DNA from: a bacterium (candidate division B38) B3_B38
Lineage (GTDB): Bacteria > Acidobacteriota > B3-B38 > Guanabaribacteriales > B3-B38
Direction of reading: 5' to 3'
Assembly (NCBI GenBank): GCA_005223145.1
Contig: NJBL01000004.1
Location: 1-60,670, forward strand
DNA: 60,670 nt
Positions 3,727 through 60,670 of the stretch are shown here, piece by piece (positions within the stretch are counted from its first letter, which is position 1; every line of letters starts with the position of its first letter). The notes beneath the pieces are model-generated. The model worked only from the letters and a program-made list of their open reading frames with translations. It did no database searches and was not told where the DNA came from. The translations under genes and the position numbers were made by a program.

Positions 3727-5061
3727 ATGGAAGCGCCCGCTAATCATAGGCTTATTCTCGAGCATCTGAAAAGGAAGATCCCCCGAAGATTAGCCATCCT
3801 GGTTAATTCCTGTGTTCACTGCGGGCTGTGCAGCGATTCCTGCCATTACTACCTGGCAGAGAACAAGAGCCGGTTTATCCCTGCCTTCAGAACCGACCGG
3901 TTATCGAGCCTTTTCCGCCGATATCATACCTGGCTGGGGAGGCTTATCCCCTTCTGGACAGGTGCCAGAGGGGTGGAGGAACTCTCCCTGAAGGAGTTTA
4001 CTGATGCGGTATTTGGCGAGTGCACTATGTGCGGGCGCTGTTCTATTAACTGTTCGGTAGGGCTGGACATCGGCTTTCTGATACGAGAGGCACGAAAGAT
4101 ACTGGTGGAGCTCAACCAGGTGCCCAGGAGCTTGCAGTCAACGGTAGATAAGGCTGTAACTACCGGCAATAATATGGCCATTAAGGAGGAAGAGCTTACA
4201 GGGACTATCCAGTGGTTGGAGGAGGAGCTGCAGCAAGAGGTGGGAGACCCCCGGGCGAAAATACCCCTCAATAAAGCTGGTGCCAGGGTTTTATACACCC
4301 TGAATCCAAGAGAGCCAAAGTTTTTTCCCCTGTCCATCATTGCCATAGCCAAGATATTTTATGCGGCGGGGGAAAACTGGACTCTCAGCAGTACCAACTT
4401 TGACGCCACTAATTATGCCTATTATTCCGGTGATGACCAGGCTGCTCGCATCATAGCAAGACGCCTGGTTGATGAGGCAGAAAAGCTGGGAGTCAATATT
4501 CTGGCAGTAACCGAGTGCGGTCATGCATATCGTTCCATCAGGTGGGAATCCCCCAACTGGCTTGGCAAGCGGTTCGGCTTCAAGGTGAAAAGCATCCTTG
4601 AGCTGATAGCCGATTACCTCAGTGAGGGTCGCATCCGGGTTGATCCCTCGGCAAACAGTGCTCCGGTTACTCTTCATGACCCTTGCAATCTCGTCCGCTA
4701 CGGTGGTGTGGTGGAGGTGCAGCGCCATATCCTGCGACAAGCGGTTAGCAACTTCGTGGAGATGCACCCCAACAGGGAGAACAACTACTGCTGCGGCGGA
4801 GGGGGAGGGCTATTGAGCATGAGCGAGTATGCAGAGCTCAGGCTCAAAGCGGGAAAAGCAAAGGTAGAACAGATTCGCCAGACAGGGGCTAAGGTGGTAG
4901 CTGCTCCCTGTCATAATTGTATTGACCAATTGATGGAGCTGAACAAGAAATATAAGTTAGGGATTGAGGCGAGGACCATAGGGGAGATTGTAGCCGATGC
5001 CCTGATTCTCCCCTCAGGACGGGTCAACCCCTCCACCGACTCTCCTTCCAAAAAAGGCTAA
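3727..5061 (+). CDS. DsrK/HdrD/HmcF-like Fe-S oxidoreductase (two 4Fe-4S motifs plus CCG domain)
   Basis: CVHCGLCSDSC, CTMCGRCSINC, ECGH, HDPC, NNYCCGGGGG, APCHNC. ATG 3727 follows GGAGAGG. Confidence 0.85.
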   Translation: MEAPANHRLILEHLKRKIPRRLAILVNSCVHCGLCSDSCHYYLAENKSRFIPAFRTDRLSSLFRRYHTWLGRLIPFWTGARGVEELSLKEFTDAVFGECTMCGRCSINCSVGLDIGFLIREARKILVELNQVPRSLQSTVDKAVTTGNNMAIKEEELTGTIQWLEEELQQEVGDPRAKIPLNKAGARVLYTLNPREPKFFPLSIIAIAKIFYAAGENWTLSSTNFDATNYAYYSGDDQAARIIARRLVDEAEKLGVNILAVTECGHAYRSIRWESPNWLGKRFGFKVKSILELIADYLSEGRIRVDPSANSAPVTLHDPCNLVRYGGVVEVQRHILRQAVSNFVEMHPNRENNYCCGGGGGLLSMSEYAELRLKAGKAKVEQIRQTGAKVVAAPCHNCIDQLMELNKKYKLGIEARTIGEIVADALILPSGRVNPSTDSPSKKG

Positions 5062-8531: not shown

Positions 8532-8819
8532 CCATCGCCTGCTCGAAATTATAGTGCGAGCAGAGGACGAGGGGAGAATGATGAAGCTCATGCATCGGCA
8601 GTGCGGGATTGGGAACCTCTGGTCCGGGAATGGCGTTTCAACATAGAGAGGGAGCGAATCGAGAGGCTATGTTAAGAGATAGTCTCCTCCAGTCACCAGG
8701 GGATATGGCTTTATCATGGGGAGAGTGGATAGCAGATTTACAGAACAAAGGTCATCCCTTTATAGTCGAAAAGATCTCTTCACCTGAAGAACTTCCTTCC
8801 CTGAAGAAAGAGGAGCGAA

Positions 8820-9209
8820 ATGTTTGAGTAAGAGGAATTCCCTGAGAGAGAGGAGCAGCAACTTGATAAGAAGTGTGCCAAGGACTCCTTGTCAGCTGTC
8901 TTCTCCGGTCTTATAGTGATACTGCTGGGGGTATTGTTCTTATTGGTCGCTCAGGATTACATCTTCTGGGGGGATTGGTGGGCGTATCTGCTGGTAGGTA
9001 TTGGAGTTATTTTCCTGATAGAAGTTATAGTCCGCCAGACTCGTCCCCAATACCGGTGCCCGGTTGCGGGAAAGCTTATAGCAGCGTTGGTGCTCATTGC
9101 CATCGGCGCAGGGCATATCTATGGGTTGAGACACTGGTGGGCGTTGATAATTATCGTGGTGGGATTTGTCATCCTATTTTTGGGCTTTAAGAGGCTGGGC
9201 GGAACCTGA
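8820..9209 (+). pseudogene. LiaF/DUF5668-like 4-TM membrane protein with a premature TAA at codon 4 (or an intact CDS from TTG 8889)
   Basis: AGGAG RBS, then ATG 8820 TTT GAG TAA, in frame with GLIVILLGVLFLL...WWAYLLVGIG...WWALIIIVVG. Confidence 0.55.
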
Positions 9210-9492
9210 GGCTCTCAGTTAAACGGGAAGAGCTCAGCCTGCGGGTAGCAAGGAAAGGGTAGAATCTTACCTCCCGTATTATGCGATAGCATTGACCTCT
9301 ACCCCTTCTGAGTACCTCACCAACCCGACAGCATTGTAAAGAGCCCATATCTTTTATCTCCCTCTCATCGCTCTACTAAAATAGGCTTTAAATGAGGCTC
9401 CGATTTCCATGTATAATCTTTGTTGCATATATATCGGCTCATCTAACCTTGTCCAATACAGCGACGGAATGGAGCTGTGTTGCCTAAATTCC

Positions 9493-9521
9493 TTGACACT
9501 ATGCGAGTTCTTTGATATAAA
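9493..9521 (+). promoter_or_regulatory. Sigma70 promoter
   Basis: TTGACA-17 nt-TATAAA upstream of ORF 9599. Confidence 0.65.
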
Positions 9522-9598
9522 TTATTCATTAAAAAGATTATAAAGGTTTGAGTAGTAAGGGTTAAAAGGTCAAAAATCTACAGGGAAGAAGGTACTCA

Positions 9599-9955
9599 AT
9601 GGATTTAAAGGAAGCCGTGCTTCACTACCAGTATGGGGAGAAGATAAAGTCCGAGCTTATAATAGCGAGCAAGATGCTGGCCAGCCTGTCAACCTTCCAG
9701 ACCGAGGAGAAGTCAGGGGGGCAGAAGCTTATGAACTCCTTTTTAGAAGCCCTCCTGGGTGAGATTCGCATTGCCCAGGGTACGGTGAAGTCCAAACAAC
9801 TAACGGAAGCCGAGGCGATGGTCACCGAGTCTATCGGACGGTTAAAGATCTCGGAGTCAGCCGAAGCTCACCGCTGTATCTCCCGGGCTATATCTGCGGT
9901 TACCACCTCTCTGAATGAGGCAGCCAGAGTGCTGGAAGAGAACGCTCTGTTTTAG
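9599..9955 (+). CDS. Hypothetical helical protein
   Basis: 118-aa ORF with RBS and upstream promoter, amphipathic helical composition. Confidence 0.7.
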   Translation: MDLKEAVLHYQYGEKIKSELIIASKMLASLSTFQTEEKSGGQKLMNSFLEALLGEIRIAQGTVKSKQLTEAEAMVTESIGRLKISESAEAHRCISRAISAVTTSLNEAARVLEENALF

Positions 9956-56199: not shown

Positions 56200-57138
56200 C
56201 TAAACCCTTTCTCCCACCCTTAGCCTGGCACTGCGACACGATGGGTTCTCCTCTATCTCTTCCGGAGATGGTCGTATAGGCTTGGATGTAAGGAGTCTGA
56301 GTATTTTCTTTGTGCCACAGCGACACTCGGGAAGCGAAGGGGGGCAAATGCAACGCCCGGTCAAGCTCCGGAAAGCCTCTTTCACTATCCTGTCCTCCAG
56401 GGAGTGATAACTCAGAATGACAAATCTGCCCCCCTTCGCTAACTGGGGAGCGGAGCTGAGGATAAACTCCCTCAGCCCTTCCAGTTCTCTATTTACCGCA
56501 ATCCGCAGCGCCTGAAAGGTTCTGGTCGCCGGATGTATGCGGTAAGGGGGAGAGGTGGGCACCACCCTGGTTATGATGTCCCGGAGCTCTGAGGTGCGGC
56601 TTATTTTCTTCTTCTTCCGATGCTGGACAATGGCTCTGGCAATCCTGTTTGCCCACCTCTCCTCCCCAAATTTATGTATTATCCTTGCCAGCTCTCCCTG
56701 AGAGCGGCGGTTTATCAGCTCCTCGGCGGTCTCTCCACTGCTGGCATCAAACCGCATGTCAAGGGGTCCGTCTGCCATAAAGCTGAACCCCCTGCGGGGG
56801 GAGGCTAACTGGTAAGACGAGAGTCCGAGGTCAACCAGGACCCCATCCACCTGAGCGATCTTCTTGGCCATAAGAATCTCTGGCAGTTGCCTGAAGTCGG
56901 CAGCCAAAAGCTCTCTCCTACCGAAAAAGCTCTTCAGCCTCTCTTCGGCGATGGCAAGCACTTGCTTATCCTTATCCACACCTATTAGCCTCCCCCCGGG
57001 GGACAGAAGGTTTAAAATGCCTTCGCTGTGCCCTCCTTCTCCTACCGTGCAGTCAACATATAGACCATCCCCCTTCCAGACCAGAAGCTCCAGCACCTTT
57101 TCCAATAACACTGGATGATGGACCGCCTGGTCAAACAT
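56200..57138 (-). CDS. rsmH: 16S rRNA m4C1402 methyltransferase
   Basis: HHPVL, DCTVGEGGHS, DLGLSSYQL, PLDMR, HPATRTFQALRI, SYHSLEDR. Confidence 0.97.
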   Translation of the reverse strand: MFDQAVHHPVLLEKVLELLVWKGDGLYVDCTVGEGGHSEGILNLLSPGGRLIGVDKDKQVLAIAEERLKSFFGRRELLAADFRQLPEILMAKKIAQVDGVLVDLGLSSYQLASPRRGFSFMADGPLDMRFDASSGETAEELINRRSQGELARIIHKFGEERWANRIARAIVQHRKKKKISRTSELRDIITRVVPTSPPYRIHPATRTFQALRIAVNRELEGLREFILSSAPQLAKGGRFVILSYHSLEDRIVKEAFRSLTGRCICPPSLPECRCGTKKILRLLTSKPIRPSPEEIEENPSCRSARLRVGERV

Positions 57139-57191: not shown

Positions 57192-57632
57192 TTAGATGTT
57201 CAGCTCAGCCAGACGAGTCATATCTTTCTCGGTAAGGGGATGGGCTTTAATGTGCTCCTCATAGCGCTTCTTGTTCCACACCTCCAGATGCTTGACACTA
57301 CCGAGCACCGCCACTTCTCCATCCATCTGGGCACTCTCCCTCAGAAGCGTGTGGATCAGCACCCGACCCTGCTTGTCCATGGCCGTCATCTGACCGAAGT
57401 AGTTGGTGCGACTGAGGAACTTTATCCTCACCGGTTCCATGGAGGGCAGCCTGGCTATCCTTCTCATCAGCTCCATCCAGACCTCCCGGGGATAAATCAG
57501 CACATTATCCCCGCTGAGACTGGTCACATAGAGCTCGGTGCCGTACTCCTTCTCAATGAGCTGCCGAAAGGCAGTGGGGATTTTTATCCTCCCCTTATCG
57601 TCTACCTTGGTGGGAAAATTACCCGTGAGCAT
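57192..57632 (-). CDS. mraZ: MraZ transcriptional regulator, paralogue 1 (proximal)
   Basis: Two DxxGR motifs (DDKGRIKIP, DKQGRVLI), LEVWN. Confidence 0.9.
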   Translation of the reverse strand: MLTGNFPTKVDDKGRIKIPTAFRQLIEKEYGTELYVTSLSGDNVLIYPREVWMELMRRIARLPSMEPVRIKFLSRTNYFGQMTAMDKQGRVLIHTLLRESAQMDGEVAVLGSVKHLEVWNKKRYEEHIKAHPLTEKDMTRLAELNI

Positions 57633-57841: not shown

Positions 57842-58288
57842 TCAGGGCTTCTGGCTGAGCTCCAATAGCTGGGCAGAGAAGCTGTCCATTAGGGATTTGG
57901 AATCTGCCAGGAACTTCTCCCATCGCTCCTTGTTCCATATCTCTATGCGGTTGGAGACCCCGATGATGACCACCTCCTTGTCAAACTGGGCGTACTCCCG
58001 TAAATGCAAGGGGATAAGGATTCTCCCTTGCTTATCCAATGTGCACTCGCTGGCGCCTGAGTAAAAGAACCTCATGAAGTTGAGGACTTTCTCTTTGAGG
58101 ATGGAGAGCTGCTGGAGTCTCTCTTTGAGCAGGTCCCATTCAACTGCCGGGAAAGCCACCAGACAGAGGTCGAAGTTGGTCACTATCAGCCGGTCGTCAA
58201 AATGGGACTGAAGCACCTCCCTGAAGGACGGCGGGATGTTGACCCTCCCCTTGGAATCGATCCTATATATATACTTCCCTTTGAACAT
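57842..58288 (-). CDS. mraZ: MraZ transcriptional regulator, paralogue 2 (distal)
   Basis: MFKG...IDSKGRVNIP, LDKQGRILIP, IEIWN. Confidence 0.93.
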   Translation of the reverse strand: MFKGKYIYRIDSKGRVNIPPSFREVLQSHFDDRLIVTNFDLCLVAFPAVEWDLLKERLQQLSILKEKVLNFMRFFYSGASECTLDKQGRILIPLHLREYAQFDKEVVIIGVSNRIEIWNKERWEKFLADSKSLMDSFSAQLLELSQKP

Positions 58289-58343
58289 AAAGGAGAACCC
58301 CCTGTAATGATGTAATCCGCATTACCAGCCTCAATTCATATCT

Positions 58344-58430
58344 CCCACTTTTCCCCACTCAAGCTCCATAGTACCCTTTCCCGCACCCCTTGTCAAGCAT
58401 TTTTTTATAAAATCTCCACATTTTTCCCAC
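58344..58430 (-). promoter_or_regulatory. Promoter of the distal mraZ with GTGGG MraZ-type boxes
   Basis: Minus strand TTGACA (58396-58391)-17 nt-TACTAT (58373-58368). ATGGA/GTGGG/GTGGG at 10-bp period (58364, 58354, 58344), plus GTGGG/GTGGA at 58426/58415. Confidence 0.7.
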
Positions 58431-58491
58431 TTCCGGCGCCCATTATGGTGAAAATGGTCAAGCCGCCGCCCCCTTCAGCACCTCTTTCGGC

Positions 58492-58520
58492 TTGCATATC
58501 CCTTTCGCTCAGGCTATAAT
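58492..58520 (+). promoter_or_regulatory. Sigma70 promoter of ychF, divergent from mraZ
   Basis: TTGCAT-17 nt-TATAAT. Confidence 0.65.
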
Positions 58521-58613
58521 GGAGGAAAATAAATGCCGAAAGCCGGGGTTACCTGAGGGGAGGCGGACTATTTTCTGTAATCCCCGCGGTCATTTCGGCA
58601 GAGGGAGGCAGCC

Positions 58614-59699
58614 ATGAAGATGGGAATACTCGGCTTCCCCAAGGTGGGGAAGACCACCCTGTTTAACCTCCTCACCAGCTCGCAGGTGGTCACCACCAAA
58701 TACTCCTCCGGGCTGGTGGAGCCGAATGTAGGCATCATCAATGTCCCCGAACCGCGCCTGGAGAAGCTCACCGAGCTCTTCCAGCCCCAGCGCACCATAC
58801 TTGCCCAGATAGAGTATATTGATATTATGGGAGCGGCGGGCGGTGAGCTGAGGAAGAGCGCCTATTTAGCCAGTCTGCGACTGGCAGATGCCCTGACGCA
58901 TATGGTGCGTGCCTATGAGGATAAGGAGATAGTCCACAGCGAGGGGGAGATTGAACCCCGGCGGGATGCCGCCCGGATGGATGCCGAGCTGATCTTAGCC
59001 GACCTCATGGTGCTGGAGGGACGACTGGAGAGTCTGGAGCAGACCATGAAGAAGGTCAAGAGCAAGGAGGATGAGCAGGAGCACGCACTGCTGCTGCGGT
59101 GCAAGGAAGCCCTGGAGAAGGAGACCCCGCTGCGGGAGGTGGAGTTCTCACCCGAGGAGGAGAAGATGCTGCGGGGGTTCGGCTTCCTCAGCGAGAAGCC
59201 GCTGCTGATTGTGGTCAACCTGGGGGAGGACGACCTCGCGCATTACGACGATTACCTCAAGCACTTCGGGCTGCAGGAGTGGACGGGGAAGAGGAGGGTG
59301 GCGCTGTGTCCGGTCAGCGGCAAGCTGGAGATGGAGCTGTCGCAACTGGAGGATGAGGAGCGGGGGGAGTTCATGAAGGAGATGGGGGTCAAGGAGCTCA
59401 GCACCGAGCGGATAATCCGCACCTCCTACCGCCTGCTGGAGCTGGTCTCGTTTTTCACCTACGCCGGGGAGGAGGTCAAGGCGTGGACCATAAAGCAGGG
59501 CACCTCGGCGCTGAGAGCCGCCGGGCAGATTCACACCGACATTGAACGCGGATTCATCCGGGCGGAGGTGATTCCCTACGACGAGCTGATCGCCCTCGGC
59601 TCCCTGAGCGAAGCCCGCCAGAAAGGTCTCCTGCGATTAGAAGGGAAAACCTACCAGGTCCAGGACGGCGATGTTATTTACTTTCGGTTTAGTACTTAA
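58614..59699 (+). CDS. ychF: YchF/OLA1 family ribosome-binding ATPase
   Basis: GFPKVGKTTLFN, KPLLIVVNLGE (NxxE), FFT..EEVKAWTI, AAGQIHTDIERGFIRAEV, RLEGKTYQVQDGDVIYFRF. Confidence 0.93.
   Translation: MKMGILGFPKVGKTTLFNLLTSSQVVTTKYSSGLVEPNVGIINVPEPRLEKLTELFQPQRTILAQIEYIDIMGAAGGELRKSAYLASLRLADALTHMVRAYEDKEIVHSEGEIEPRRDAARMDAELILADLMVLEGRLESLEQTMKKVKSKEDEQEHALLLRCKEALEKETPLREVEFSPEEEKMLRGFGFLSEKPLLIVVNLGEDDLAHYDDYLKHFGLQEWTGKRRVALCPVSGKLEMELSQLEDEERGEFMKEMGVKELSTERIIRTSYRLLELVSFFTYAGEEVKAWTIKQGTSALRAAGQIHTDIERGFIRAEVIPYDELIALGSLSEARQKGLLRLEGKTYQVQDGDVIYFRFST
59628..59699 (+). repeat. Copy 1 of the ychF 3'-terminal 72 nt (the copy currently in use)
   Basis: Encodes LLRLEGKTYQVQDGDVIYFRFST-stop; 57/72 nt identical to 60396..60467. 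Confidence 0.9.
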
Positions 59700-59726
59700 T
59701 AGAAATACATGTAAGCATAAATTAAA

Positions 59727-60281
59727 ATGGCAGATTGGCTCTCATTAGTTGGTTTAATTCCCTTAATTGACAGGATAAGGAAAAGACCAAAACTTGAAAT
59801 AACTCCTAAACATGAGAAGTCCCATTTTTATCAAAAATATCAATTTAACGAATTAACTGGGAAAATAGGAAAGCCAATTGGCACTGTATTGGAATTTTGT
59901 CTTACTATCGAAAATAAGGGTAGGGGAGAAGCTAAAGTGAAACAATTCGATATAAAGATTAAGGATATAGATAAAAACTATATAGATATAAAACATATTG
60001 AGCTCATCAAGAAGAGAGGAAGAAACTCAGAATTTAGAACAATACCAAAATTTAGAACAAGCAAAGGATGGCAACTTATAAGCCCACCTAAGGAAATATT
60101 GGTAAAAGATAGTTACATAATAAGGATAGCAGCTGATGACCGAACCCATGAGGGATATTTATATTTCCCTAGAGAGGATAATATTCCGGAAAATAAAGAA
60201 CAAATTGAATGTATTTTAAGACTTAAATATGGTAGAAAAAAAACTGAGGCAAAATTCAATTTAACTAGAAAGGATTGTTAG
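59727..60281 (+). CDS. AT-rich, Lys-rich hypothetical protein (islet cargo)
   Basis: 184-aa ORF with sharply lower GC than ychF, lying between the two ychF-end copies. Confidence 0.75.
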   Translation: MADWLSLVGLIPLIDRIRKRPKLEITPKHEKSHFYQKYQFNELTGKIGKPIGTVLEFCLTIENKGRGEAKVKQFDIKIKDIDKNYIDIKHIELIKKRGRNSEFRTIPKFRTSKGWQLISPPKEILVKDSYIIRIAADDRTHEGYLYFPREDNIPENKEQIECILRLKYGRKKTEAKFNLTRKDC

Positions 60282-60395
60282 CCATATTATTAAGTAAGCC
60301 TTACATTTTTATTAATATTTCGAGGAATTGGGGGAGGGTTATATCGGAGAAAAGCTCCGGTCAGCTCACTAAATGGAGTCTTCTTGCAATGCGAG

Positions 60396-60467
60396 CTGCT
60401 GCGGCTGGAGGGGAAGACATACCAGGTGCAGGATGGCGATGTCATCTACTTCCGGTTTAGCACATGA
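60396..60467 (+). repeat. Copy 2 of the ychF 3' end (displaced gene fragment, attR-like)
   Basis: CTG CTG CGG CTG GAG GGG AAG ACA TAC CAG GTG CAG GAT GGC GAT GTC ATC TAC TTC CGG TTT AGC ACA TGA gives the same peptide as the ychF C-terminus. Confidence 0.9.
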
Positions 60468-60526
60468 GGATAATTTCCACAAATTATTGAAATATTTTTT
60501 GGTTTGAAATTATATTTTGGTTGAAA

Positions 60527-60670
60527 ATGGTGATAGAAATAAGGTCAGAAGACGAGCTAAGAAAAAAAATCATAGAGTATTTAAAAGCAGATGAAGAAGT
60601 TATCAATGTTGATGATAGATGCAGTGGCATTGAATTTGGTGCTGATATCACATTTGAAAAACCTGATTAT
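60527..60670 (+). CDS. AT-rich ORF truncated by the window end, possible restriction-endonuclease-like N-terminus
   Basis: Open frame MVIEIRSEDELRKKIIEYLKADEEVINVDDRCSGIEFGADITFEKPDY... Confidence 0.55.
   Translation, partial: MVIEIRSEDELRKKIIEYLKADEEVINVDDRCSGIEFGADITFEKPDY

What the first reader, a model, noticed from the sequence alone, without database searches (positions are those of the whole stretch)
59628..60467. Synonymously recoded duplicate of the ychF 3' end flanks a one-gene islet: possible cassette-accretion system
Seen: 59628-59699 and 60396-60467 both encode LLRLEGKTYQVQDGDVIYFRFST-stop but differ at 15 of 72 nt, every change synonymous (including TAA/TGA). Between them is only an AT-rich 184-aa ORF and a spacer of about 115 nt, with no integrase. 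Another AT-rich ORF starts 59 nt after copy 2. Established: elements integrating into the 3' end of a coding gene carry a replacement end and displace the original. Inference: both copies were under protein-level selection, so each has served as a functional ychF end. The unit [ychF tail + cargo gene], about 770 bp, may be a minimal non-autonomous cassette, with successive cassettes stacking behind ychF and expressed by read-through. That would be an integron-like array using a coding sequence as its recombination site.
Basis: partly seen in the sequence, partly recalled or inferred. Interest (0 to 1): 0.82.

Follow-up and report, generated by a model that had tools for sequence, protein, structure and literature searches.

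The report
Displaced ychF gene end at hotspot
A housekeeping GTPase gene (ychF) is followed by one small foreign-looking gene and then a second, silently re-spelled copy of its own last 23 codons, which most likely marks strain-to-strain DNA exchange at a variable spot and not a new cassette system.

Summary
59628-59699 and 60396-60467 encode the same 23 residues plus stop and differ at 15 of 72 nt, none changing a residue. Random changes do not give this: 0 of 200,000 trials with 15 changes.

It is not a misassembly. Contigs of two other public data sets carry the same order, tail, small gene, spacer, tail.

The cassette-array reading is not borne out.
- Only two copies exist in the 2.25-Mb assembly, whose contig ends 203 nt after copy 2.
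- No recombinase lies in the contig.
- A relative (L022) has the same small gene directly behind ychF with one tail only.
- The gene's non-coding flanks are about as diverged as ychF.
- A distant genome of the phylum (G265) has a free-standing ychF end with another left border.

DNA behind ychF differs between strains from the stop codon on.

Best reading (0.42): a ychF end displaced or trapped by homology-anchored plus illegitimate recombination at a hotspot of small AT-rich genes. Rival (0.3): an integrase-less remnant of site-specific integration (CIME-like). A true stacking array: about 0.1.

The parts
58614..59699 (+). ychF (361 aa), intact, ends in tail copy 1
   Evidence: Pfam YchF-GTPase_C 3.7e-34 and MMR_HSR1 3.4e-8. 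94% nt identity to G002, 84% to L021 and L022.
59628..59699 (+). Tail copy 1: the last 23 codons plus TAA, in use as the ychF end. GC3 is 0.50 against 0.83 for the gene body.
   Evidence: Its first 19 nt equal the G002 tail. pS to the L022 tail is 0.67.
59700..59726 (+). Intergenic stretch, homologous to L022 (17 of 27 nt), with a weak promoter-like match at 59700-59728
59727..60281 (+). ORF184: a small AT-rich gene of unknown function, modelled as an N-terminal helix plus a beta-sandwich
   Evidence: 10 proteins in the family, all metagenomic. No Pfam, PADLOC or PHROGs match. Model pLDDT 68.6, no PDB match at E <= 0.001. Homologue directly behind ychF in L022.
60282..60395 (+). Spacer of 114 nt. 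It is homologous to the DNA behind the L022 gene up to 60393, 2 nt before copy 2.
   Evidence: Local alignment score 42 against 21 +/- 3 (max 31) in 300 shuffles; 72 of 114 nt identical. No Rfam match, no terminator-like site.
60396..60467 (+). Tail copy 2: a free-standing ychF end (23 codons plus TGA), GC3 0.75, closest to the tails of L021 and L022
   Evidence: 65 of 72 nt identical to L021 and to L022, pS 0.30 to L022. No ychF similarity upstream of it.
60487..60516 (+). Promoter-like site (10 of 12) ahead of the next ORF
   Evidence: a consensus match only
60527..60670 (+). Start of the next AT-rich ORF (ORFX), cut by the contig end
   Evidence: One full-length homologue, P0011, 151 aa, 88% identical. 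No Pfam, PADLOC or PHROGs match. Atlas lead to small Mrr_cat-like nucleases, score 0.94, family on 11-22% of members.

Best explanation
The DNA directly behind ychF is a strain-variable hotspot filled with small AT-rich genes. ORF184 with its flanks (module M) is a long-standing occupant of that spot in this clade.

The second tail is a by-product of exchange between strains. A DNA fragment that began inside the ychF of another lineage was joined on one side by homology and on the other by an illegitimate join. As a result one ychF end stays on the gene and another lies free behind M, in front of the next variable gene. No dedicated recombinase and no cassette-specific site are needed.

The silent differences are the divergence that the two ends built up as working gene ends in two lineages before they were brought together.

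Shown: the structure, its recurrence, the hotspot, and the mosaic divergence. Inferred: the kind of join, and which of the two ends came in from outside.
For: (1) Variability starts at the stop codon. L021 and L022 agree through the tail and are unrelated right after it. In four public runs many different sequences follow 59694-59701 and 60462-60473 (table 7).

(2) L022 carries an ORF184 homologue directly behind ychF with one tail. Homology with G000 runs from ychF through the spacer to 60393.

(3) M's non-coding flanks are 63% identical between G000 and L022 (17 of 27 and 72 of 114 nt). ychF synonymous sites are 54-58% identical (pS 0.42-0.46). This fits co-divergence at the locus. The ORF body is younger (codons 21-184, pS 0.15-0.18) and its first 20 codons are unrelated (pS 0.92), so the region is a recombination mosaic.

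(4) ychF itself is mosaic between G000 and G002: 0.89-0.91 identity in some 90-nt windows, 0.97-1.0 in others.

(5) Copy 2 is nearer to the L021 and L022 tails (7 of 72 differences each) than copy 1 is (12 and 16). Copy 1 matches the same-genus G002 at 30 of 33 nt. So the end in use looks native and the free one imported.

(6) No recombinase is at hand. PF00589 has 4 hits in G000, none on C51, and one of them sits next to a tRNA. PF00239 and PF07508 have 0 hits.

(7) G265, in another family of the phylum, has intact ychF, two signalling genes, then the last 74 codons of ychF free-standing. These share 205 of 225 nt and 71 of 74 aa with the gene's own end, and the stop is lost. There is no integrase between, and the left border is at codon 283.

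(8) The same kind of history, with homology-facilitated illegitimate recombination as the proposed join, is in print for T6SS effector and Rhs loci (PMC5361080, passages read).
Against: - The tails are extremely diverged (pS 0.85), more than ychF between G000 and L022 (0.44). With 16.5 synonymous sites the test is weak, but it fits an element-borne, AT-shifted replacement end at least as well.
- The AT shift of copy 1 starts at about codon 337, next to the left border of the repeat (codon 339), as a site-specific crossover there would give.
- Tail, M, tail is seen with M variants whose ORFs are only 68-72% identical (X3 contig, matched to P0005 only by its equal length, 3625 nt). Yet copy 2 in G000 shows no decay. 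This is easier if the structure is remade repeatedly than if it is old.
- I found no clear microhomology at the spacer/copy 2 join.
- ychF is a named integration site of pipolins that carry large serine recombinases in another phylum (10.1101/2024.05.22.595293, passages read).
- The far side of the locus is not assembled.
Confidence: 0.42

Rival explanations
1. M is an integrase-less remnant or satellite of an element that integrates site-specifically into the ychF 3' end and carries a replacement end (CIME-like). Copy 1 is attL, made of the gene plus the element-borne end. Copy 2 is attR, holding the displaced native end. A recombinase acting in trans, perhaps on the unassembled DNA behind copy 2, would move it, and further elements could add on in tandem.
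For: - The anatomy is the classical one: a direct repeat of the gene end around AT-rich cargo, with the gene kept intact.
- Copy 1 is AT-shifted like the cargo: 10 of the 15 differences are A or T in copy 1 against G or C in copy 2.
- The shift starts beside the repeat border.
- The tails are too diverged (no identical run longer than 8 nt) for RecA-type crossover between them.
- The 33 nt of the G002 tail equal copy 1 at nt 1-19 and copy 2 at nt 20-33, apart from one letter at the contig tip. An empty or excised site with its crossover in the shared GGGAA would look like this.
- Contigs break inside tails in G002, X15, X3 and X1.
- CIMEs of 1.2-13 kb and gene-less microCIMEs of 130-220 bp stacked at the 3' ends of rpmG, rpsI, fda and rplL are described (PMC7563491, passages read).
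Against: - No recombinase could be linked.
- L022 has M with a single, native-type tail, and L021 has other cargo behind the same tail, so there cargo changed without change of the tail.
- The first tail on the X15 contig, which is 95% identical overall, is shifted to copy 2 letters at five or more sites. Crossover or conversion points therefore vary (table 3).
- M's flanks diverge like ychF.
- The G002 pattern is also what 90% baseline divergence gives: 3 differences in 33 nt.
- In S. salivarius CIMEs lie farthest from the target gene (PMC7563491); here the integrase-less unit is nearest.
- G265 has another border.
Confidence: 0.3
2. A true cassette-accretion array. Units of one tail plus one cargo gene stack behind ychF, and the coding tail itself is the recombination site, as attC is in integrons.
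For: The one visible unit is compact (768 nt). It recurs in three data sets with different DNA behind copy 2. Another small AT-rich gene with its own promoter-like site follows copy 2. The contig ends before a third tail could be seen.
Against: - No third copy in 2.25 Mb at 93% completeness, and none on C4.
- None of the 98 fetched loci with a tail hit, other than G000, has two hits.
- Neither L022 nor L021 has a tail behind its cargo.
- No free-standing tail other than the window's own was found among called proteins of 30-98 aa: 7 hits, of which 6 are ychF fragments.
- No integron-type integrase and no folded attC-like site was seen.
Confidence: 0.1
3. An assembly artefact: two strains' versions of the ychF end merged into one contig.
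For: The genome is a metagenome bin of 102 contigs. The contig stops 203 nt after copy 2. Strain variants are plentiful at this place.
Against: - A 24.9-kb contig of run X15, about 95% identical and so another strain, covers 58600-60460 in one piece.
- A 3.6-kb contig of run X3, from another study, runs from inside copy 1 through the gene, spacer and copy 2 into other DNA (table 8).
- The two copies share no word longer than 8 nt, so an assembler could not fold them together.
Confidence: 0.03

Closest known systems
C-terminal displacement at Rhs, CDI and T6SS effector loci (sequential displacement; homology-facilitated illegitimate recombination proposed)
   Same: A conserved gene keeps a working 3' end while another 3' end lies orphaned downstream together with small accessory genes. 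No recombinase gene is present, the locus is a mosaic between strains, and new DNA is anchored by homology in the conserved gene (PMC5361080, passages read).
   Different: There the displaced ends encode different toxin tips and the retained genes are immunity genes. Here the two ends encode the same peptide of a housekeeping GTPase, so the duplication has no evident use. The order of arrival is not settled here.
CIMEs and microCIMEs with tandem accretion at the 3' ends of rpsI, rpmG, fda and rplL in streptococci
   Same: Integrase-less units flanked by direct repeats of the end of a housekeeping gene, able to stand in tandem with other elements (PMC7563491, passages read).
   Different: Those are defined by att sites of known ICE or IME integrases and were detected beside such elements. 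They lie farthest from the target gene. Here no integrase or partner element is seen, and the unit lies next to the gene.
Insertion with long target duplication (restriction-modification units in Helicobacter, Haemophilus and others)
   Same: Small defence-type gene units without mobility genes, flanked by direct repeats longer than 30 bp, some overlapping the 3' end of a gene, mostly in naturally competent species (PMC2853133, passages read).
   Different: The repeats tabulated in the passages I read are 93-100% identical, because they are copies of one target. Here identity is 79% with only silent differences, so the two copies come from two lineages.
Pipolins with large serine recombinases integrated at ychF
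   Same: ychF is the target gene (10.1101/2024.05.22.595293, passages read).
   Different: Those are large elements with a piPolB polymerase and a recombinase, in Actinomycetota. Neither serine-recombinase family was found in G000. I did not search for piPolB.
Integron cassette arrays
   Same: The idea of small promoterless units added one behind another.
   Different: No IntI, no attI or attC, and no more than one unit seen.

Membership tests
Integron or integron-like cassette array | Integron-type tyrosine recombinase next to the array | tested here: not met
   PF00589 has 4 hits in G000, none on contig C51. I did not test whether any of the four is of the IntI type. DNA beyond 60670 is not assembled.
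Integron or integron-like cassette array | Several cassettes, each ending in the same kind of recombination site | tested here: not met
   Two tail copies only in the assembly. One unit is visible. The contig end limits the test.
CIME / ICE-IME accretion at a gene's 3' end | Unit flanked by direct repeats that include the 3' end of the target gene, with the gene kept intact | tested here: met
CIME / ICE-IME accretion at a gene's 3' end | Repeats are att sites of an identifiable integrase, with a related autonomous element in tandem or in relatives | tested here: not met
   No linked integrase in G000. I saw none in the ORF lists of the 4.6 kb and 5.2 kb behind ychF in L021 and L022, where only three ORFs were scanned against Pfam. 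The DNA behind copy 2 is unknown.
CIME / ICE-IME accretion at a gene's 3' end | Fixed crossover position (a shared core) in independent copies | tested here: inconclusive
   The G002 tail fits a crossover at nt 15-19. The first tail on the X15 contig differs from G000 at five or more sites, toward copy 2 letters. The table is cut (306 rows not shown).
C-terminal displacement by homology-facilitated illegitimate recombination | An intact conserved gene plus an orphaned copy of its 3' end downstream, with a sharp loss of homology at the orphan's 5' border | tested here: met
   (1 of 30 upstream codons matches); one search shows the same in G265.
C-terminal displacement by homology-facilitated illegitimate recombination | Signs of homologous exchange in the anchor gene and in the neighbouring DNA | tested here: met
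   Mosaic identity in ychF. Breaks in synonymous divergence inside ORF184.
C-terminal displacement by homology-facilitated illegitimate recombination | Microhomology of a few nt at the illegitimate join | tested here: inconclusive
   The join lies at 60393-60396. Without the parental sequences no microhomology can be assigned.
Insertion with long target duplication | Near-identical long direct repeats derived from one target sequence | tested here: not met
   57 of 72 nt identical, and pS 0.85.

The most novel reading that the evidence does not exclude
M is a roughly 770-bp, one-gene, recombinase-less mobile unit that carries its own silently re-spelled copy of the last 23 codons of an essential-type GTPase gene. 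It uses that coding stretch as its attachment site. It is moved by a recombinase encoded elsewhere, and such units add up one after another behind ychF. The re-spelling would keep the repeats too unlike for host recombination to delete the unit.
Probability: 0.1. Interest if true: 0.75.

Novelty: new member of a known kind. Interest (0 to 1): 0.35.

Why it matters
The case is a clean natural example of how a conserved gene end gets copied and left behind when variable DNA is swapped next to it. The all-silent pattern of differences dates the two ends to separate working lives.

It marks the 3' side of ychF as a hotspot for small, unknown, possibly defence-type genes in an uncultured marine-sediment lineage. 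With G265 it shows that free-standing ychF ends arise more than once in the phylum.

If the minority reading holds (a tail-targeted, recombinase-less one-gene unit), it would be one of the smallest mobile units with a coding attachment site. The present data do not require that.

Tried and rejected
**Searches that found nothing**
- Further tail copies. tblastn of the 23-aa peptide on G000 gave two full hits. The next best (C78, 12 aa) has no tail continuation. A hit on C11 beside an integrase is the N-terminus of an unrelated small ORF, and that integrase abuts a tRNA.
- ORF184 relatives. None by the search for related loci in genome contigs or viral contigs. None in phage records. None in 300 other genomes of the phylum. 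So the contexts of eight of the nine other family members could not be read; only that of P0004, on L022, could.
- Function of ORF184 and ORFX. No Pfam, PADLOC or PHROGs match. Foldseek against PDB gave only generic beta-sandwiches above E 0.001. The Atlas gave unnamed clusters for ORF184.
- Rfam, terminators and repeats in 58300-60670. No RNA family and no terminator-like site. A 17-nt, 76% inverted repeat around ORF184 (I6) I take as chance in AT-rich DNA; it is not visible in L022.

**Leads dropped**
- Right flank of the locus. The L022 GGT gene has an 86% orthologue on G000 contig C4, which has AT-rich ends. The link to C51 is only a guess.
- G265 against G364. Only ychF is shared, so that comparison does not tell which end is native there.
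- An earlier idea of mine, that copy 1 came in as a whole with M from an L022-like donor. I dropped it because copy 2, not copy 1, is L022-like.
- An apparent divergence break at codon 60 of ORF184. It proved to come from the first 20 codons alone.

**Limits of the run data**
- All runs are assembled contigs, no raw reads. No run holds more than 0.34 of the sampled words.
- The difference table was cut (306 rows not shown), so the state of copy 2 in X3 and X15 is unknown. Whether the X15 7.9-kb contig truly follows M is uncertain, because the two contigs overlap by only 30 nt inside the tail.
- Parts of the stretch without cover in X2 and X3 say nothing.
- Supplementary files of the papers were not opened.
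Full report
**What is there**

The window is the whole 60,670-nt contig C51 of a 2.25-Mb, 102-contig genome bin (G000, GC 0.495).

- ychF (58614-59699, 361 aa; Pfam YchF-GTPase_C and MMR_HSR1) lies next to the division-cluster genes rsmH and two mraZ copies on the other strand.
- Its last 23 codons plus stop (59628-59699) recur at 60396-60467.
- The two stretches differ at 15 of 72 nt and no residue changes.
- Between them are 27 nt, a 184-aa ORF (59727-60281), and a 114-nt spacer.
- 59 nt after the second copy another ORF starts. The contig ends 203 nt after copy 2.
- GC falls from about 0.6 in ychF to about 0.3 behind it.

**Is it more than chance, and is it real DNA?**

Only 24% of single changes in this stretch are synonymous. 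In 200,000 trials, 15 random changes never left the peptide intact, and 8 changes did so at 1.5e-5. By Nei-Gojobori counting, 14 of 16.5 synonymous sites differ and 0 of 52.5 non-synonymous sites. So the differences arose while both stretches were under selection as protein ends. They did not arise by drift after an in-place duplication.

The structure is not a strain-merging artefact. In public run X15 a 24.9-kb contig, about 95% identical, covers 58600-60460 in one piece. In run X3, from another study, a 3.6-kb contig runs from inside copy 1 through a variant of the ORF, the spacer and copy 2 into other DNA (table 8). The two copies share no word longer than 8 nt.

**How many copies?**

Two. 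tblastn of the peptide on the whole bin gave the two full hits and nothing else that holds up. A scan for duplicated C-terminal 22-mers within 20 kb gave 22 hits, and only ychF was a perfect one. Of 98 fetched loci with a tail hit, only G000 has two. Among called proteins of 30-98 aa in the large protein collection, the only free-standing tail is the window's own; the other six hits are ychF fragments. The DNA beyond 60670 is missing, so a third copy cannot be excluded.

**Relatives**

- G002 (same genus, ychF 94% identical in nt) has a contig that ends inside the tail. Its 33 readable tail nt equal copy 1 at nt 1-19 and copy 2 at nt 20-33, apart from one letter at the tip that makes a TAG.
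- L021 and L022, two metagenome contigs with ychF at 85-86% amino-acid identity, have one tail each. These tails are nearer to copy 2 (7 of 72 differences each) than to copy 1 (16 and 12).
- L021 and L022 agree through the tail and become unrelated right after the stop codon. L021 continues with an AT-rich 417-aa ORF. L022 continues with a 193-aa homologue of ORF184 and then a 124-aa ORF.
- In four public runs many different sequences follow the tails (table 7).
- One contig of X2 joins a relative's ychF straight to a copy 2-type tail (table 5).

The DNA behind ychF is therefore a strain-variable spot, and the variation begins at the stop codon.

**The module M (ORF184 and its flanks)**

The ORF belongs to a family of 10 proteins, all from metagenomes and 52-81% identical. 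It was not found in species-representative genomes, viral contigs, phage records, or 300 other genomes of the phylum. It matches no Pfam, PADLOC or PHROGs family. The model shows an N-terminal helix and a beta-sandwich (pLDDT 68.6) with no specific structural match. It does not look like a recombinase.

Between G000 and L022, homology runs from ychF through the ORF and the spacer up to 60393, 2 nt before copy 2. Divergence is uneven:

| Segment | G000 against L022 |
|---|---|
| ychF | pS 0.42-0.46 |
| Intergenic stretch | 17 of 27 nt identical |
| ORF, first 20 codons | pS 0.92 |
| ORF, codons 21-184 | pS 0.15-0.18 |
| Spacer | 72 of 114 nt identical |

 I read this as follows. The locus, flanks included, is about as old as the split of the two lineages, and the ORF body was exchanged later. 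Strong AT bias lowers the ceiling of pS in the ORF, so the contrast is somewhat overstated.

**Which tail is native?**

- Copy 1 is joined to a ychF whose last 230 nt are at the usual 0.90-0.93 identity to G002. It shares 30 of 33 nt with the G002 tail.
- Copy 2 is closer to L021 and L022 (pS 0.30 against 0.67 for copy 1).
- This favours copy 1 as the native end of this genus and copy 2 as an end brought in from an L022-like lineage together with the DNA behind it.
- The counts are small, and the reverse is not excluded. In that case copy 1 is an AT-shifted end carried by M and copy 2 is the displaced native end. In its favour, 10 of the 15 differences are A or T in copy 1 against G or C in copy 2. 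The shift begins at about codon 337, beside the repeat border.

**Recombinases**

G000 has four PF00589 matches, none on C51. One sits beside a tRNA gene. PF00239 and PF07508 gave no match, and the same search gave matches in 12 (PF00239) and 2 (PF07508) of 14 control genomes. The bin is 93% complete.

**A second case in the phylum**

In 401 sampled genomes, 28 had two matches to the last 100 residues of YchF. I followed all 28 up.

- Most are full-length paralogues.
- Two are frameshifted copies (G356, G340).
- One is a contig-edge fragment (G152).
- One is a clear parallel, G265. There intact ychF is followed by a 1004-aa hybrid histidine kinase and a 383-aa response-regulator kinase. Then, 4.5 kb downstream, come the last 74 codons of ychF. 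They share 71 of 74 residues and 205 of 225 nt with the gene's own end, the stop codon is lost, and homology is lost sharply before codon 283.

G265 has no integrase between the copies and host-like GC. The border differs from that in G000, so the two cases do not share one fixed site.

**Mechanism**

Four readings remain.

(a) A homology-anchored exchange with an illegitimate join at the other side. It either traps an incoming ychF end behind M or displaces the resident one. This is the mechanism proposed in print for orphaned 3' ends at T6SS effector and Rhs loci (PMC5361080, passages). It needs no recombinase and fits the mosaic divergence, the single tail in L022, the unchanged tail in front of different cargo in L021 and L022, and G265. 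Confidence 0.42.

(b) Site-specific integration with a replacement end, of which M is an integrase-less remnant like the CIMEs at rpsI, rpmG, fda and rplL (PMC7563491, passages). It fits the anatomy, the AT shift of copy 1, the very high tail divergence, the contig breaks inside tails, and the fact that ychF can serve as an integration site (10.1101/2024.05.22.595293, passages). It lacks a recombinase, and a fixed crossover is not shown. Confidence 0.3.

(c) A stacking array with the coding tail as its site, about 0.1.

(d) An artefact, about 0.03.

The remainder is for histories I have not thought of. A simple in-place "insertion with long target duplication" (PMC2853133, passages) is excluded by the 79% identity with silent changes only.

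**Known or new**

Orphaned gene ends beside variable DNA, and integrase-less units flanked by repeats of a gene's 3' end, are both described. The particular features here are:
- a housekeeping GTPase as the gene concerned;
- two ends that encode the same peptide yet differ at nearly every silent site;
- a one-gene unit between them that recurs in three data sets.

I file it as a new member of a known kind. Interest is moderate. It would rise if complete loci showed more than two tails or a dedicated recombinase.

**Limits**

The runs were contigs, not reads, and part of the difference table was cut. The papers were read as passages found by term search, not in full, and their supplements were not opened. 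The tallies include unpublished genomes (G027, G050, G151), and may too. No specific claim rests on them.

Noticed in passing
window 57192-57632 and 57842-58288 (minus strand): Two tandem mraZ genes (Pfam MraZ, 1.7e-18 and 4.1e-32) lie upstream of rsmH (56200-57138). A doubled mraZ at the head of the division cluster is unusual.
   Followed up: partly
L112 (G265:C25:12000-23000), 3877-4413 and 8657-9727, minus strand: A second free-standing ychF 3' end in another family of the phylum: the last 74 codons, 71 of 74 aa identical, stop lost, 4.5 kb behind intact ychF. Two two-component signalling genes lie between, with no integrase.
   Followed up: partly
L002 (G002:C8), last 33 nt: The same-genus genome's contig stops inside the ychF tail. 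Its last letters turn CAG into TAG, which may be a tip error or a real variant. The tail is copy 1-like for 19 nt, then copy 2-like.
   Followed up: partly
L022 4481-5977: An open frame joins the first 332 or so residues of a gamma-glutamyltranspeptidase (86% to G000 contig C4) to the C-terminal part of the S9 peptidase seen whole in L021. This is either a deletion fusion or a chimeric contig.
   Followed up: no
window 58614-59699 against L002: ychF identity between G000 and G002 is mosaic: 0.89-0.91 at nt 136-450 and 856-1000, and 0.97-1.0 at nt 451-850. This indicates recent exchange inside the gene.
   Followed up: no
G000 contigs C4, C11, C14, C46, C56, C58, C61, C70, C71, C77, C86 and others: 21 of 102 contigs, C51 among them, have an end with GC below 0.38 in a genome of GC 0.495. 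AT-rich variable DNA seems to break this assembly often.
   Followed up: no
window 60527-60670; L022 1636-2010: The genes that follow M in G000 and in L022 are unrelated in sequence. By my reading of their motifs, both look like small PD-(D/E)XK nucleases. For the G000 one there is an Atlas lead to Mrr_cat-like proteins (0.94). For the L022 one there are only weak Pfam hits.
   Followed up: partly
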